DNA from: Vezdaea acicularis
Taxonomy: Eukaryota
Direction of reading: 5' to 3'
Length of the DNA stretch: 64,000 nucleotides
Assembly (NCBI GenBank): GCA_026025075.1
Contig: JAPEUI010000009.1
Coordinates: forward strand, 1-64,000
A program made the translations under genes and the position numbers. Numbering within the stretch: position 1 is the stretch's first letter; the number at the start of each line of letters is the position of its first letter. Under the pieces are notes generated by a model. The model saw nothing but the letters and a program-made list of their open reading frames with translations. It searched no databases and was not told the DNA's origin. This document shows positions 1 through 4,728 of this stretch, piece by piece.

Positions 1-663
1 GGCGTTCGCGGCGGAGGTGATTGCTGAGCTGCTCATGGCCTCATCTGTGCGGCCGCCGAGGGGGCCGGCGTTGGCGCCGCTGGCGGAGGCAGGGCCTTCG
101 CCGCTTGCGGTGCCGAAGCGTACGCCTGGTCGTGGGTTTGTCTTTGATTGATCGTCTTTGCCGGAGTAGGCGCTTTGCCATTGGGCGATTTGCGCTTCGT
201 ATTCGGGATCGGCGGACGAGTTGTCGTATTGGCCGCGGCCGTAGGCAGAGCTGTCTTGGGTGGCGGGGAGTGGGAAGGGGTTGCGTATTTGGGGAGCTGG
301 CGAGTTGGTGTACTCTTGGGGTGAGGGTTGTGGGTACAGCGCCGTTTGCGGCTGGACCGGTGCTTGGTAGTTTCCGCCTGTATATATTGTTTGAGTAGGA
401 GAAAATCCACGGGGAGGGGCCGGGGGAGCAGAGACGGTGGGGCTCGCTGTTCGCCAGTCTTGGGCGCCTGCTCCTATCTGTCTTGGCCTGAAGCCTTGAG
501 GAGCCCCATATGCCCCAGCGCCACCACCGGCGCCACTGTTGAATGAGAATGCCGGCTTAAACGAAGGCGGACCACTGATTGGTGGCGGTGGGCGGGGAGG
601 AAGGGAGGACGGAGGTTGCGGTGAAGACAATTTGCCTAGGCCTGGAGGCGGCGGATAGGACAT
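1..663 (-). CDS. 5' part of an RBM42-like RNA-binding (RRM/RNP) protein; runs off the left edge of the window
   Basis: ATG at 663 opens a stop-free frame to position 1 (absent from the ORF track because it has no stop): MSYPPPPGLGK...SLPPRPP...QIRNPFPLP...DPEYEAQIAQWQSAYSGKDD...GANAGPLG. This matches my recollection of the N-terminus of fungal RBM42 homologs. The RRM itself would lie outside the window. Confidence 0.72.
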   Translation of the reverse strand, partial: MSYPPPPGLGKLSSPQPPSSLPPRPPPPISGPPSFKPAFSFNSGAGGGAGAYGAPQGFRPRQIGAGAQDWRTASPTVSAPPAPPRGFSPTQTIYTGGNYQAPVQPQTALYPQPSPQEYTNSPAPQIRNPFPLPATQDSSAYGRGQYDNSSADPEYEAQIAQWQSAYSGKDDQSKTNPRPGVRFGTASGEGPASASGANAGPLGGRTDEAMSSSAITSAANA

Positions 664-1357
664 GATGAACGGTGGACGGTTGACCTCGTAGAGTTGTGAG
701 GTTACGTACCTTTCGCGTCCGCAAACCAATCTTTCAGAGCCTTTAACAAGCTCCAGATACAGCCAGTGTCTTATACCGGCTTTCTGGCTGCAATTATAGA
801 CTTAGCGGGGGGACGAGAGGAGATGGTTTCACGAGGATGGATGATCAAACGTTCTTGGTGTTGAATAATTAGGCGACCTTCAGATCGTCAAAGTGGCGGT
901 GTTGCATGTGGCTGACGAGCAGATTTGCTGACATAAGCATTACCGGGCATTCCACGATTGGTTGCGGAAGTACTCGGGGAGGATGCCCTGCAGGACGGGT
1001 GAGGCTAAATCCACGTACTGGGACATGCCTATCCAATTGATTGAGAACACAGGTCGCCGGAACCAATCTTTCAAGCCCGGAGATTAGATGTGCGGTGCTG
1101 TTGGTCTCGGATGTTGCGCATATGGTGGGGCGTCTTGAATTGCGTAGCGACTATTTGGATGGCCCCGCCTTCACCCCACCGAGACTGAATCCCTCACCTG
1201 AGGTCATACTCAATTCTTCCCGATCAGTTCCATCTGCAACTGTGGTTCCGTCTCTATCACAAGTCGCAAACTTTTGAATATTACTACGGCTTCACAGTTG
1301 CACGATCAATCAGTTACCATCGCTTCTGCCCAACAGATCCGACCAGACTACTTCATC

Positions 1358-3291
1358 ATGGGTGACAAGGCACTGTAAGTTGTGTTTCCGGAGTTTCCGC
1401 CCGCCCATGCCACTTTAGAAAACCTCCTCTAGTGGCCTTTTCATATTATATCACGAAGTGTAAAGGGAGGACGTGAAGTTCTCTAGTAATTGGGCTGACC
1501 GTAGAGCGCGTCTTGCCGGCATCAATGTCGGCGGGCCTGCGCGGTTTGATGCCAGTGGTGATTTTGGCCTAATCGGTCTTGCCGTCATGGGCCAAAACTT
1601 GATCCTGAACGCCGCAGATCATGGTATGGAATCAGCTTGAAGGGCATCTTACACATAGCCTCTGCTAACCTTCAATAAGGATTTCACGTTGTGGCCTTTA
1701 ACCGGACCGTGGAAAAAGTCGATCGTTTTCTTGAAAATGAAGCTAAAGGTAGGTGATACAACTATCGCCGGCTATAACTGCTTCACGAGCACTTTCATTG
1801 AGAAAGATAAACCATGATATACCCTGTACCTAAATGCTTCTATAGGAAAATCAATAAGCGGTGCTCATTCCGTTGAAGAATTCGTCTTAAAGCTCAAGAA
1901 ACCCCGGATTATGATGCTCTTGGTTATGGCTGGGAAAGCGGTCGACGATTTTATTGAAAAGCTCCTACTATATGTTGAGAAAGGGGACATTATCATTGAC
2001 GGCGGAAACTCTCACTACCCAGACACAAACCGACGGACTCATTATCTGAAGGAGAAAGGAATCCGCTTTGTTGGCACTGGTGTTTCTGGAGGAGAAGATG
2101 GCGCCAGATACGGTCCGTCGCTGATGCCTGGTGGTAACGAGGAGGCATGGTCGTATATCAAAGACATCTTCCAAAGCATTGCAGCCAAAAGTGACGGTGA
2201 GCCCTGCTGTGATTGGGTCGGTGATGACGGTGCAGGTCATTACGTCAAGATGGTCCATAATGGTATCGAGTATGGTGACATGCAGCTTATCAGCGAGGTA
2301 CGAGGCCAAGAAACCCAGCCGACTTGTGAACTTATGACAGACCCAATTAATGTATCCTGGGTAGGCTTACGACATCATGAAACGTGGCCTGGGCATGAAG
2401 GATAAGGAGATTGGAGATACTATGGCAGAGTGGAATAAAGGGGTTCTCGACTCTTTCCTAATCGAAATCACCCGTGATGTTTTGAGATTCAACGATACCG
2501 ACGGCGTACCTATGGTGGAGAAAATCCTTGACTCTGCGGGGCAGAAAGGTACAGGTAAATGGACTGCTATCAACGCCCTTGACCTGGGCATGCCCGTTAC
2601 GCTTATCGGAGAGGCTGTATTTGCTCGATGTTTGAGCTCCCTGAAGGCGGAGCGTGGCCGCGCAGCCAAGGTCCTTACTGGACCGACTCCCAAGTTCGAG
2701 GGTAATAAGAAAGAATTCCTGGCCAACTTGGAGCAAGCGCTTTATGCCTCCAAGATCATTTCTTACGCTCAAGGTTTCATGTTGATACAAAACGTAAGAC
2801 CCAGGAATCCATAAGTGCTGATCAGGTATCTTTTGCTAAGTGACATATAGGCCGCCAAAGAGTATTCGTGGAAGCTCAATAAGCCATCAATTGCCTTGAT
2901 GTGGCGTGGCGGCTGCATTATCCGGTCCGTGTTCCTGAAAGACATTACGAAGGCATATCGCACAAACCCCGACCTCGAAAATCTACTCTTTGACGATTTC
3001 TTCAATAAGGCTATCCACAAGGCCCAACCAGGCTGGCGGGACGTTGTTAGTAAAGGCTGTCTCTGGGGAATACCCACCCCAGCTTTCAGCACGGCTCTCA
3101 GCTTCTTCGACGGATACAGGACCAAGGATCTTCCAGCAAATCTACTTCAAGCACAACGAGATTACTTTGGCGCCCACACCTTCCGAATCAAGCCAGAATA
3201 CGCAAACGAGCAACATCCTGAGGGTAAGAACATTCATGTCAACTGGACAGGACATGGCGGCGACGTGTCGGCCACGACGTATACCGCGTAA
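1358..3291 (+). CDS. gnd1: 6-phosphogluconate dehydrogenase, decarboxylating (491 aa, or 508 aa with the proximal acceptor)
   Basis: Exons 1358-1374, (1505 or 1556)-1623, 1680-1748, 1846-2297, 2365-2793, 2851-3291. Motifs: [12 protein letters not shown] (NADP-binding), [51 protein letters not shown]. Confidence 0.98.
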
Positions 3292-3869
3292 GCTCTGAAC
3301 AGGGCCTTGGATGGCCAGGAAATAGCATTGTAAGCAATACTAGGCACGAGGTGAGGAAACAATAGATATAGCTCTATCGTTCATCGTTAGAAGACCCAAA
3401 ATGAAACAAGCGTATAAAGCTATGACAACTTCGTGAGCATGAGCTGTACACATTGGATACCTTTCACATGTACTCGTACAAGATTGGTGGGTGGAAGTAA
3501 ACTTTAGCGGTATAAATTCTAGCCCCACTGATTGCGCTAGCCGTAATAGGACTAGCAGATAACCAGCGAGATATACCGACCATTTCCCCGTCCTCCTGGG
3601 CAAATACCGTTCTCATCTGCCTCCTCGACCCCATTCCCCTACGGAACGGTCAAGGTGTTGGACCCATGTTCTAGCTTCCCATAATCTCTGCGGCTCTTGT
3701 TTTCACGTCGTTCCTTTGACCCTGCCCTTTTGCATGTCCTACGTCTACTTTCAGGTGCGACCTTCTGCGCCAAAACCTCCGATGACCTGAAGCTAGCTTC
3801 TTGCCTTTCTCTACACACCCGCAACTGCGCACAGCGGTATTAAGGTGAAGGAGATTCAAGGAGGGGAGT

Positions 3870-4728
3870 ATGGCAGAGACCATGACGAAGAAGCCAGCAA
3901 AGATCCCACCTGCGATTCCCAATGTCGGTGGACAAGGGCATGCGGCGACTGCGTTAGCAATTGAGTCCGCTCTAGTGCAGGCGGTGGGGGCACGGCAAGC
4001 TCTCCCTTTTCTTTATCTTTGGTCTCTGCGCCGACGGTCAAGCGCTCCCTTGGCGAGAATGAAACTAATCTTATAATTGTCATCTCAGAGTCCGCATAAC
4101 GAACTCTCACTCTCGTGCCTTTGAGGGCACCGTCTTCGCTGTGGACCCCGTTCGCCGACTCGTTGCGCTCAACACGACTCCTCCGCCACCTACCCCGTCC
4201 TCGTCAGCTCCCACAAAGGACACTCCTAGCGACTACCATATCTTCCACATCTCACGCCTTCTGAAGGTGGATGTGCTCTCTCCTGCGCCGTCCACTCCAG
4301 AGAACACCCCCAAGCAGGTAAACCCTGCCGCCGGAGAGGACAGGCTGCGCAAAGCCGTGCTAGCTGAGAAGAAGAAGGAAGAACGCGTGGGCAAGGGTGT
4401 GACTAAAGAGGCGCAGGTGGTGTTCGACGGGATCCTCAGAACTGGGCTGCCGACGCGCTGGGTGGGGAAGGACATTATGGTCATGGACTCCGTTCTCGTC
4501 ACGTCACCGTACGGATCCCAGAACTGCAAGTCTGTGGACAAGAACAACCAAGCTCTAGCGCGGGTCAAGAAAGTGGTAAGCCCTCGATCTTATCTCATTT
4601 CCGTCAAATATACCTCCTCTGCTAACACCTCCCAACAGTTGGAGAACGAAAAGCAGAAGAGATCCTCCGCTCTCCGTAAAGGCGAGAATGCTAGTTCCCC
4701 GAAAGGAGACGCCCGTAAAGGTGGCTGA
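3870..4728 (+). CDS. LSM12: LSM12-like protein (Sm-like N-domain plus anticodon-binding-like AD domain), 233 aa
   Basis: Exons 3870-3994, 4089-4575, 4639-4728; the first intron is best modelled as GC-AG. Motifs: VGARVRIT..FEGTVFAVDP, DYHIFHISRL, VGKGVTKEAQVVFD..RWVGKDIMVMDSVLVTSPY. Confidence 0.85.

What the first reader, a model, noticed from the sequence alone, without database searches (positions are those of the whole stretch)
1375..1560. Candidate bistable RNA switch controlling alternative 3' splice-site choice in gnd1
Seen: intron 1 (donor GTAAGT at 1375, branch GCTGAC at 1494-1499) has two in-frame acceptors, TAG ending at 1504 and CAG ending at 1555. They are exactly 51 nt apart, with no AG between 1507 and 1553, and give MGDKAL-GDFGLIG or [30 protein letters not shown]. 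The 51-nt segment can fold two mutually exclusive ways. Fold A: GCCGGCA (1515-1521) pairs with TGTCGGC (1526-1532) around a 4-nt loop, extended by 1506-1514/1533-1542 with G-U pairs, one mismatch and one bulge. It loops out about 37 nt, bringing the distal CAG within normal branch-point distance and leaving it unpaired. Fold B: a perfect 8-bp helix GGCATCAA (1518-1525)/TTGATGCC (1546-1553), extendable by C1516-G1555 and G-U pairs to 1513/1558, buries the distal acceptor. Established: RNA structure between branch point and AG steers 3' site choice in budding yeast, and fungal TPP riboswitches act through splicing. Inference: this could be a temperature-, protein- or ligand-responsive switch setting the isoform ratio of an NADPH-producing enzyme. 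It does not resemble a TPP aptamer.
Basis: partly seen in the sequence, partly recalled or inferred. Interest (0 to 1): 0.8.

Follow-up and report, generated by a model that had tools for sequence, protein, structure and literature searches.

The report
Conserved hairpin between two gnd1 acceptors
The two splice acceptors are the already known way fungi make a long (targeting-peptide) and a short (cytosolic) 6-phosphogluconate dehydrogenase, and between them lies one conserved RNA hairpin that probably favours the far acceptor rather than acting as a two-state switch.

Summary
The sequence features are all at the stated coordinates. The gene is a fungal 6-phosphogluconate dehydrogenase. Its two in-frame acceptors correspond to the published GND alternative 3' splice sites. 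There the proximal site gives a minor PTS2 isoform and the distal site the cytosolic one (Hurtig 2020, passages read).

In 18 diverged lineages (window plus 17 metagenome loci):
- The distal YAG is kept in 18 of 18 and a proximal YAG in 16 of 18.
- Fold A is kept, with strong constraint on synonymous sites. Core codons have synonymous pair identity 0.865 against 0.51 in the background.
- The rare Ala codon GCG is kept in 17 of 17, against 4% in the background.
- Native stems are about 11 kcal/mol more stable than synonymous recodings in all 18.

Fold B is not conserved; its 3' arm lies in a variable stretch. It holds at most 1.3% of the ensemble at 37 °C. No Rfam family matches.

Best reading: a "downstream stem" cuts the 57-nt branch-to-distal-AG path to about 20 nt and masks the proximal AG. 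No RNA data cover this intron in this organism. The splice-site pair is known; the conserved, dual-coding stem appears unreported in the two literature searches made.

The parts
1358..1374 (+). Coding part of exon 1 (ATG plus 14 nt, ends in codon phase 2)
   Evidence: The same layout (ATG, 14 or 17 nt, then GTRRGT) is found in 14 of the 17 related lineages; the other 3 lacked it in the flank held.
1375..1380 (+). 5' splice site GTAAGT of intron 1
1494..1499 (+). Branch-point consensus GCTGAC (branch A at 1498). It lies 6 nt from the proximal AG and 57 nt from the distal AG.
   Evidence: CTRAY sits at the same aligned place in 18 of 18 lineages. Only the window (TTGAT at 1546) and L003 have another YTRAY between the two acceptors.
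1502..1504 (+). Proximal 3' splice site TAG. It gives the long isoform with the 17-residue insert.
   Evidence: YAG is at this aligned place in 16 of 18 lineages; L005 has AAG 2 nt further on and L025 has none.
1505..1555 (+). 51-nt alternative segment. It is coding in the long isoform (junction base plus [17 protein letters not shown]) and intronic in the short one.
   Evidence: The peptide is conserved in the relatives' proteins listed.
1506..1542 (+). Conserved stem-loop (fold A): lower stem 1506-1510/1538-1542, core hairpin 1512-1521/1526-1535, loop 1522-1525.
   Evidence: MFE and pair probabilities. Conservation of pairs. Synonymous-site constraint. Recoding test.
1539..1542 (+). GCGC: a rare Ala codon GCG plus C, forming the 3' strand of the lower stem.
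   Evidence: GCG in 17 of 17 lineages that have Ala here, against 4% of Ala codons in the background. It pairs with the GCGC at or next to the proximal acceptor.
1543..1552 (+). Variable linker between the stem and the distal acceptor.
   Evidence: No conserved columns. Fold B pairs are kept in only 58.3% of cells.
1553..1555 (+). Distal 3' splice site CAG. It gives the short, presumably cytosolic isoform.
   Evidence: YAG in 27 of 27 sequences. The Ser codon is AGT in 17 and AGC in 1 of 18 lineages, against 12% AGT in the background. In relatives' proteins the residue is S in 142, R in 6, T in 1 and K in 1. Short-form ORFs occur on mRNA-length contigs.
1556..1623 (+). Common part of exon 2 ([22 protein letters not shown], the NAD(P)-binding start of 6PGDH).
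   Evidence: Homologues carry PF03446 and PF00393.
1624..1679 (+). Intron 2 (56 nt, GTATGG...AG), particular to this lineage.
   Evidence: It is absent at this place in all 26 metagenome loci, where the ex2 and ex3 matches abut.

Best explanation
Window 1358-3291 (+) is a Pezizomycotina 6-phosphogluconate dehydrogenase gene. Its first intron has the conserved GND pair of in-frame 3' splice sites.

The proximal site (ending 1504) adds a 17-residue, highly conserved N-terminal peptide. That peptide sits where other fungi carry a PTS2. The distal site (ending 1555) gives the ordinary short enzyme.

The segment between the sites doubles as one conserved RNA stem-loop (about 1506-1542). I read it as a "downstream stem" with two effects:
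- It begins at the proximal AG, so that AG is partly masked. The AG is also only 6 nt from the branch A.
- It loops out about 37-39 nt, so the distal AG, 57 nt from the branch A in linear sequence, ends up about 19-21 nt away.

The result would be mostly short mRNA and a small share of long mRNA.

Shown: the sequence anatomy; conservation of both acceptors; synonymous-site constraint that matches the stem; the lack of AG between the sites; and use of the distal junction in mRNA-length contigs of relatives.

Inferred: that the stem causes distal choice; that the long form is minor in this organism; and what the long form's peptide does.
For: Anatomy.

Known system. Hurtig 2020 (passages read) describes proximal/PTS2 and distal/cytosolic GND isoforms in several yeasts, with a potential proximal site in A. 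fumigatus.

Peptide. ARLAGINVG(G/A)PA... occurs in annotated proteins of about 508 aa from Lecanoromycetes, Eurotiomycetes, Dothideomycetes and Geoglossum.

Nucleotide level. These figures come from 18 lineages that are mostly 72-93% identical in coding DNA (two pairs 96% and 99%):
- Distal YAG in 18 of 18; proximal YAG in 16 of 18.
- Core codons are GCC 17, GGC 18, ATC 17, AAT 15, GTC 18 and GGC 15, each of 18. Their mean synonymous pair identity is 0.865, against 0.51 in 144 background columns.
- None of 139 sliding 6-column background windows reaches 0.865 (the maximum is 0.706). No background column is invariant.
- GCG is kept in 17 of 17, against 4% in the background.

Structure:
- 94.1% of cells pair in the consensus structure, against at most 53.8% when partners are slid.
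- The six inner pairs of the core stem (columns 22-27 with 34-39) are paired in 108 of 108 cells. All 4 changes there are G-C to G-U.
- The stem region averages -22.5 kcal/mol, against -11.3 for synonymous recodings. At most 1% of 500 recodings are as stable, in every one of the 18 lineages.
- The core hairpin has probability at least 0.94 in 16 of 18 lineages. The proximal G is paired with probability at least 0.73 in 15 of 18.

AG avoidance. There are 4 AG in total between the sites, against 19.0 ± 3.7 in recodings. None of 2000 recodings is as low.

Isoform use:
- Ten ORFs of 491-495 aa on 1.6-1.9 kb contigs start M-x-(V/Q)-GDFG.
- Three of them are 91-94% identical to annotated long-form proteins.
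- Of the 52 near-full-length long-form proteins, 50 come from NCBI genome annotation. The other 2 are ENA ORF fragments. None comes from an mRNA-length contig.

Mechanism class. Stems that shorten branch-to-3'ss distance and occlude cryptic 3' sites are documented in S. cerevisiae (PMC12350175) and S. pombe (PMC9508853).
Against: - No RNA evidence exists for this organism. The only run found covers 2179-2284 and 3049-3289, not intron 1.
- Covariation proper is weak. Three pairs change on both sides, and 33 of 500 shuffles reach the covariation score. The case therefore rests on conservation at synonymous sites. A protein-binding or other primary-sequence element would produce the same conservation.
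- Taken alone, the window's segment is not unusually stable (z = -0.76).
- In the window the lower stem sits 2 nt further 3' than in most lineages. Its proximal AG is only half paired (0.49).
- Four lineages carry an extra AG between the sites.
- L003 is predicted to fold otherwise (hairpin probability 0.125).
- The loci were fished with a pattern that required the LAGINVG and (G/A)DFGLIG peptides at fixed spacing. Lineages with diverged peptides were therefore not sampled.
- "mRNA-length contig" is my inference from ORF length against contig length.
- The minimum usable branch-to-AG distance in these fungi is not known to me. A criterion or range of 10 nt upward is stated only for S. cerevisiae.
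Confidence: 0.55

Rival explanations
1. First reader's model. The segment is a bistable switch (fold A against fold B) that responds to temperature, a protein or a ligand and so sets the isoform ratio.
For: - In the window both helices exist. The fold B helix is a perfect 8 bp, which is seen in only 1.9% of shuffles.
- The modelled fold B share rises on cooling: 0.011 at 37 °C, 0.107 at 15 °C and 0.31 at 5 °C.
- One other lineage (L001) has a different pairing between the hairpin's 5' arm and the distal-site region. Its probability is 0.92 at 15 °C.
- Temperature-sensitive stems between branch point and 3'ss are known.
Against: - Fold B's 3' arm is not conserved: 58.3% of cells are paired and no pair changes on both sides.
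- Sixteen of 18 lineages show no such alternative, with probability at most 0.01 at 37 °C and at most 0.002 at 15 °C.
- Fold A has probability at least 0.987 at 37 °C in the window.
- No Rfam family matches, riboswitch families included.
- Nearest-neighbour energies extrapolated to 5 °C are uncertain.
Confidence: 0.07
2. The nucleotide conservation serves something other than 3' site choice, and the hairpin is incidental to splicing. Candidates are a protein-binding element, a structure acting on translation of the long mRNA (the stem begins 18 nt after its AUG), or a DNA-level element.
For: - Loop and unpaired bases are conserved too: ATC in 17 and AAT in 15 of 18 lineages.
- Covariation is weak.
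- L025 keeps the whole segment although it has no proximal AG. The segment therefore matters even where the long splice form cannot be made in the usual way.
Against: - The conserved wobble bases are the ones that face G in the stem. They are C rather than T in 68 of 72 cells, although T-ending Gly codons are the commoner in the background.
- The changes seen keep the pairs.
- The stem spans exactly from the proximal AG to 13 nt before the distal AG.
- AG is avoided between the sites.
Confidence: 0.2
3. Only the proximal acceptor is used, as in nearly all genome annotations (508-510 aa). On this view the distal CAG and the hairpin are by-products of a conserved peptide and codon bias.
For: - Fifty of the 52 near-full-length proteins with the insert are genome-annotation models that use the proximal site.
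- The peptide A-G-I-N-V-G fixes two of the stem's pairs by itself. The C-ending codons favoured in this gene would supply most of the rest.
Against: - Distal YAG occurs in 27 of 27 sequences, using a minority Ser codon (AGT, 12% in the background).
- In relatives' proteins the residue is S in 142 and R in 6 of 150, which fits a kept AG.
- The minority codons GCG (4%), AAT (27%) and GGC (30%) are fixed.
- Recodings with the gene's own codon usage are about 11 kcal/mol weaker.
- Short-form ORFs occur on mRNA-length contigs 91-94% identical to long-form genes.
- Hurtig 2020 found no proximal-junction reads in A. fumigatus.
Confidence: 0.05
4. Two branch points serve the two acceptors. A conserved TTGAY-type motif 17-21 nt upstream of GCTGAC would serve the proximal AG. 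GCTGAC, too close to the proximal AG, would serve the distal AG. The isoform ratio would then be set by branch choice, with the stem only bridging the distance.
For: - A YTGAY-like motif (TTGAC, TTGAT, CTGAG or TTAAT) aligns at that place in about 15 of 18 lineages.
- GCTGAC lies 6 nt from the proximal AG in 16 of 18 lineages.
Against: - The motif is weak in the window itself (GTGAAG) and absent in L025.
- No branch mapping is available.
- This is an addition to the best explanation more than a rival to it.
Confidence: 0.13

Closest known systems
Alternative 3' splice sites of fungal GND/6PGDH genes (Strijbis et al. 2012 in C. albicans; Hurtig et al. 2020 in Saccharomycotina, with a potential site noted in A. 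fumigatus)
   Same: - Same gene and same intron position near the N-terminus.
- The proximal site adds an N-terminal peptide and the distal site gives the short form.
- The added peptide lies where a canonical PTS2 lies in some relatives, for example RLAKIAGHI in P0151.
   Different: - The Pezizomycotina insert RLAGINVG(G/A) lacks the H/Q-L/A end of the PTS2 consensus.
- Peroxisomal import has not been shown for it.
- A conserved stem-loop between the sites was not found in print: two full-text searches gave 0 papers.
[quoted passage not shown] Examples are the S. cerevisiae effective-distance hairpins and the APE2 thermosensor (Meyer 2011, cited in PMC12350175), and S. pombe rap1 intron 2 (PMC9508853).
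   Same: - A stable stem loops out most of a long branch-to-AG spacer.
- It covers an upstream competing AG (for the class; for this case).
   Different: - Here the stem is built from codons of an alternatively included coding segment, so it is constrained by a peptide as well.
- It is conserved across classes of Pezizomycotina.
- It has not been tested by mutation.
Cryptic PTS2 in the 5' UTR of basidiomycete pgd1, read by non-AUG initiation (Kremp et al. 2020, PMC7214817)
   Same: - The same enzyme is given a minor N-terminally extended isoform.
- Capnodiales relatives show RLSDLSAHF-type motifs in frame upstream of the ATG.
   Different: - The window's 5' UTR has no PTS2 match in any frame.
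- The window uses splicing rather than alternative initiation.
Fungal TPP riboswitches that act through splicing
   Same: An RNA structure near alternative splice sites in a fungal intron.
   Different: - There is no aptamer and no Rfam match.
- There is no conserved alternative fold.

Membership tests
GND alternative-3'-splice-site dual-isoform system | The gene encodes 6-phosphogluconate dehydrogenase. | tested here: met
   The exon translations match 6PGDH proteins carrying PF03446 and PF00393. Identity is 82-95% over exon 2 and 79-91% over exon 4.
GND alternative-3'-splice-site dual-isoform system | Two in-frame 3' splice sites in the first intron, with the proximal one adding an N-terminal segment. 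| tested here: met
   Acceptors end at 1504 and 1555, 51 nt apart. The distal YAG is conserved in 18 of 18 lineages and the proximal YAG in 16 of 18.
GND alternative-3'-splice-site dual-isoform system | Both junctions are present in RNA. | tested here: inconclusive
   No read or contig covers intron 1 in the one run available. In relatives the distal junction is seen in mRNA-length contigs. The proximal junction appears only in genome-annotation models.
GND alternative-3'-splice-site dual-isoform system | The long isoform is imported into peroxisomes. | not testable with these tools
   This needs localisation experiments.
PTS2 signal | A nonapeptide (R/K)(L/V/I)x5(H/Q)(L/A) near the N-terminus (consensus as given in PMC7214817). 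| tested here: not met
   The window's long N-terminus gives no match. RLAGINVGG has G-G where H/Q-L/A is required. Among the roughly 150 relatives with the splice-type insert, only P0151 matches.
Branch-point-to-3'ss downstream stem (effective-distance hairpin) | [quoted passage not shown] | tested here: met
   The core hairpin has probability 0.987-1.0 in the window and at least 0.94 in 16 of 18 lineages.
Branch-point-to-3'ss downstream stem (effective-distance hairpin) | The linear distance is long, and the distance with the stem looped out falls in the usual range. | tested here: met
   The path is 57 nt from A1498 to G1555. It is about 19-21 nt once 1504/1506-1542 is closed, counted from the structures.
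Branch-point-to-3'ss downstream stem (effective-distance hairpin) | Evolutionary support for the pairing. | tested here: inconclusive
   Conservation and the recoding tests are strong. Covariation is weak: 3 pairs change on both sides, and 33 of 500 shuffles reach the score.
Branch-point-to-3'ss downstream stem (effective-distance hairpin) | Breaking the stem shifts 3' site choice, and restoring it rescues. | not testable with these tools
   This needs minigene experiments.
Riboswitch or bistable RNA switch | Two mutually exclusive folds, both conserved. | tested here: not met
   Fold B pairs in 58.3% of cells with no change on both sides. It is absent in 16 of 18 lineages.
Riboswitch or bistable RNA switch | A recognisable aptamer. 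| tested here: not met
   No Rfam match at E up to 1 in 1200-1800.

The most novel reading that the evidence does not exclude
The stem-loop is a tunable element, set by its stability, by temperature, by a helicase or by a binding protein. It would fix the ratio of the targeted to the cytosolic 6PGDH across Pezizomycotina. On this reading, the near-invariance of the ARLAGINVG peptide is imposed partly by the RNA structure it encodes. That would make it a true dual-coding element in which peptide and splicing stem constrain each other. The weak fold-B-like alternatives in the window and in L001 would then be lineage-specific, cold-responsive tuning.
Probability: 0.15. Interest if true: 0.7.

Novelty: new member of a known kind. 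Interest (0 to 1): 0.45.

Why it matters
The splice-site pair itself is known biology.

The new part is a testable mechanism for how a short-intron fungus reaches an acceptor 57 nt from its branch point while skipping one that is 6 nt away. It also offers an explanation for why a 17-codon insert is conserved even at its silent sites.

If the stem sets the isoform ratio, it is a clean natural case of a coding segment that doubles as a splicing structure. That would give a handle on how much NADPH-producing enzyme is sent to its second destination.

It also warns annotators. The roughly 508-aa models in many Pezizomycotina genomes probably describe the minor isoform.

Tried and rejected
- RNA evidence. 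One RNA run was found, with a small share of the words. Its contigs lie only on 2179-2284 (a relative, 19 differences) and 3049-3289 (identical). It says nothing about intron 1.
- Own genome. None is held for this window.
- A first protein query was 1 residue too short. It was re-sent with 40 residues.
I could not see the published alignment of PTS2 inserts or the A. fumigatus model, which bear on whether the Pezizomycotina insert counts as a PTS2.
- One literature query was malformed. It was replaced.
- Earlier findings of this scan: nothing by place or by words.
- Rfam: no match.
- PTS2 in the window's 5' UTR (the Kremp mechanism): none in three frames.
- Matching the short-form transcripts to my loci: none is identical to a locus. 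The link is therefore by 91-94% identity to annotated proteins only.
- The outer helix GCUG (branch site) with CAGU (distal acceptor) is kept in 95.8% of cells. I give it no weight, because both arms are splicing signals and would be conserved anyway.
Full report
**1. The observation**

Reading 1-4200 and a script confirm every coordinate:
- ATG at 1358, with exon 1 ending at 1374 in codon phase 2.
- Donor GTAAGT at 1375.
- GCTGAC at 1494-1499.
- TAG ending at 1504 and CAG ending at 1555.
- AG dinucleotides in 1490-1570 only at 1503, 1505 and 1554.

Downstream exons translate to a 6-phosphogluconate dehydrogenase.

The fold A hairpin is the minimum-energy structure. The fold B helix is a perfect 8 bp.

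**2. Energetics in the window**

The 76-nt stretch 1490-1565 folds to -29.8 kcal/mol, which is not unusual (z = -0.76; 46 of 200 shuffles fold as well).

Fold A core pairs have probability 0.987-1.0 and fold B pairs 0-0.013, depending on the flanks.

With fold B enforced, its share of the ensemble is 0.011 at 37 °C, 0.037 at 25 °C, 0.107 at 15 °C and 0.31 at 5 °C. In the model the window's sequence therefore leans a little towards fold B in the cold, but it is not bistable at ordinary temperatures.

An 8-bp perfect helix turns up in 1.9% of 1000 dinucleotide shuffles.

**3. The insert is a conserved peptide, and the splice pair is known**

A search with the translation of 1503-1622 gave 287 proteins at E of 0.001 or better among 778 candidates. 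The best 120 were listed.

Their N-termini show ARLAGINVG(G/A)PA(R/H/Q)xxxS followed by (G/A)DFGLIG. This holds in annotated proteins of about 508 aa from Lecanoromycetes, Eurotiomycetes (Aspergillus, Penicillium, Talaromyces), Dothideomycetes and Geoglossum. It also holds in many short ORFs called across the 3' end of the intron.

Hurtig et al. 2020 (PMC7491326, passages read) state the following:
[quoted passage not shown] The proximal site includes a PTS2 and the distal site gives a cytoplasmic protein.
- The peroxisomal form is about 0.1% of the mRNA.
- The pattern is seen in other yeasts.
- A. fumigatus has a potential proximal site for which they found no junction reads.

Kremp et al. 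2020 (PMC7214817, parts 1 and 2 of 5 of the text read) give the PTS2 consensus. They also describe a different route to a PTS2 isoform, by non-AUG initiation. I could not read Strijbis 2012 or the supplements of Hurtig 2020.

**4. Orthologous DNA**

A degenerate pattern asked for L-A-G-I-N-V-G, then 24 free bases, then (G/A)-D-F-G-L-I-G. Every wobble base was left free. It matched the window once and 26 metagenome contigs.

After removing identical and near-identical copies, 18 lineages remain, counting the window. I dropped L007, L008, L015, L017, L018, L020, L022, L024 and L026. Most remaining pairs are 72-93% identical over 211 codons.

In all 27 sequences the distal acceptor is YAG at the same place. 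In the 18 lineages the proximal YAG is present in 16. L005 has AAG two bases on, and L025 has no AG there at all.

CTRAY stands 6 nt before the proximal AG in 16 of 18 lineages. Only the window and L003 have another YTRAY between the two acceptors. The distal site must therefore normally use a branch about 57 nt away.

**5. Silent-site constraint**

In the 18 lineages the codons under the core hairpin are GCC 17, GGC 18, ATC 17, AAT 15, GTC 18 and GGC 15 (the other 3 are GGT).

- Their mean synonymous pair identity is 0.865. The mean is 0.51 for 144 conserved-residue background columns of the same genes.
- None of 139 sliding six-column background windows reaches 0.865 (the maximum is 0.706).
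- No background column is invariant, whereas three columns of the segment are.

The kept codons are often minority codons in this gene:

| Codon | Share in background | Kept in segment |
|---|---|---|
| GCG (Ala) | 4% | 17 of 17 |
| AAT (Asn) | 27% | 15 of 18 |
| GGC (Gly) | 30% | 18 and 15 of 18 |
| AGT (Ser) | 12% | 17 of 18 |

The Ser codon carries the distal AG. In about 150 relatives' proteins with this insert, the residue is S in 142, R in 6, T in 1 and K in 1. Ten further proteins with V belong to the 5'-UTR type described in section 9. S and R share AGN codons, which fits a kept AG.

**6. Structure**

RNAalifold proposes three helices:
- A core helix, columns 21-27 with 34-40.
- A lower helix, columns 11-15 with 45-49. 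This is the G of the proximal AG plus CGC, facing the conserved GCGC.
- An outer helix, GCUG of the branch site with CAGU of the distal site.

This consensus pairs in 94.1% of cells, against at most 53.8% with partners slid. The six inner core pairs are paired in 108 of 108 cells, and the only changes there are G-C to G-U.

True covariation is thin. Three pairs change on both sides, and 33 of 500 shuffles reach the covariation score. I say so plainly: the case rests on silent-site conservation.

I ran a recoding control that keeps each lineage's peptide and draws codons from the genes' own usage. It gives -11.3 kcal/mol for the stem region, against -22.5 for the native sequences. At most 1% of 500 recodings are as stable, in each of the 18 lineages.

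The hairpin has probability at least 0.94 in 16 of 18 lineages (L001 0.80, L003 0.125). The proximal G is paired with probability at least 0.73 in 15 of 18 (window 0.49).

AG is avoided between the sites. There are 4 in all, against 19.0 ± 3.7 in recodings, and none of 2000 recodings is as low.

**7. Fold B**

Its 3' arm (1546-1553) lies in the stretch with no conserved column. Pairing is 58.3%, with no change on both sides.

Any pairing between the hairpin's 5' half and the distal-site region has probability at most 0.01 in 16 of 18 lineages at 37 °C, and at most 0.002 at 15 °C. The exceptions are the window (0.013 at 37 °C and 0.116 at 15 °C) and L001 (0.196 and 0.92).

Rfam finds nothing in 1200-1800.

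**8. Which site is used**

There are no data for this organism.

For relatives, a search with the common N-terminal 45 residues (P0121, from L010) listed ten ORFs of 491-495 aa on contigs of 1.6-1.9 kb. These are too short to hold the introns, so I take them to be mRNA-derived. All ten join the exon-1 residues straight to GDFG.

P0123, P0153 and P0164 are 93.8%, 91.4% and 91.1% identical to annotated long-form proteins. None is identical to one of my loci.

Conversely, of 52 near-full-length proteins with the insert, 50 come from NCBI genome annotation and 2 are ENA ORF fragments. None sits on an mRNA-length contig. This agrees with Hurtig's finding for A. fumigatus.

**9. What the insert is**

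It does not fit the PTS2 consensus. RLAGINVGG keeps R, L and I but has G-G at the H/Q-L/A positions.

It does occupy the place of canonical motifs in some relatives, such as RLAKIAGHI in P0151 and RLSAIAGGL in Choiromyces. Capnodiales relatives lack the insert and carry RLSDLSAHF-type motifs in frame upstream of their ATG. Those motifs match the Kremp mechanism.

I therefore read the insert as PTS2-derived, with present function unproven.

**10. Mechanism and comparison**

Stems between branch point and 3' site that shorten the effective distance and cover cryptic AGs are documented:
- By in vivo probing in S. cerevisiae, where cryptic sites were counted from 10 nt after the branch (PMC12350175).
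- By mutation and rescue in S. pombe (PMC9508853). That paper also notes that spacings of 30 nt or more are rare there.

The stem here runs from the proximal AG to 13 nt before the distal AG. It cuts 57 nt to about 19-21 nt. It is a new example of that class, sitting inside the known GND splice pair.

Two full-text searches combined GND1 or 6PGDH with stem-loop or hairpin and splicing terms. Both found no paper.

**11. Verdict**

The switch interpretation is not supported.

What is there is the known GND alternative 3' splice pair plus one conserved, dual-coding stem-loop that probably favours the distal site.

Confidence is 0.55 for the whole mechanism. It is higher (about 0.8-0.9) for the two sub-claims that the pair is homologous to the known system and that the stem is under selection at the RNA level.

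Noticed in passing
L025:524-590 (aligned to window 1494-1560): This lineage has TACC where the others have the proximal TAG plus one base, so it has no proximal AG. Its intron is short (71 nt to that point). It nevertheless keeps the whole 51-nt segment in frame, with the hairpin at probability 1.0. This could be a recent loss, an assembly error, or a sign that the segment matters for distal splicing alone.
   Followed up: partly
Window about 1471-1480; loci, 17-21 nt upstream of their GCTGAC: A second branch-like motif (TTGAC, TTGAT, CTGAG or TTAAT, often followed by RAG) aligns in about 15 of 18 lineages. It is weak in the window (GTGAAG) and absent in L025. It could be a separate branch point for the proximal acceptor.
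   Followed up: partly
Window 1624-1679: The window has a 56-nt intron inside the codon after ...AADH. None of the 26 metagenome loci has it; their exon 2 and exon 3 matches abut.
   Followed up: no
Proteins P0131, P0139, P0143, P0167, P0174, P0178, P0179 and others: Capnodiales-type 6PGDH records lack the ARLAGINVG insert. Read in frame upstream of the ATG, they carry canonical PTS2-like motifs (RLSDLSAHF, RVNSISSHF, RVDSIAHHL, RLHSLSQHI, RVAHLANHL). That pattern fits the non-AUG mechanism of Kremp 2020, but in ascomycetes.
   Followed up: no
L001:917-983 (minus strand): This lineage has GCT instead of GCC in the hairpin's 5' arm. The model gives it an alternative pairing of that arm with the distal-acceptor region, with probability 0.196 at 37 °C and 0.92 at 15 °C. 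It is the only lineage besides the window with any such alternative.
   Followed up: no
Window 3049-3289: A 241-nt contig of a lichen metatranscriptome run matches the 3' end of the gene without a difference. The organism or a very close relative is therefore present, and this gene's 3' end is represented, in that RNA library.
   Followed up: no
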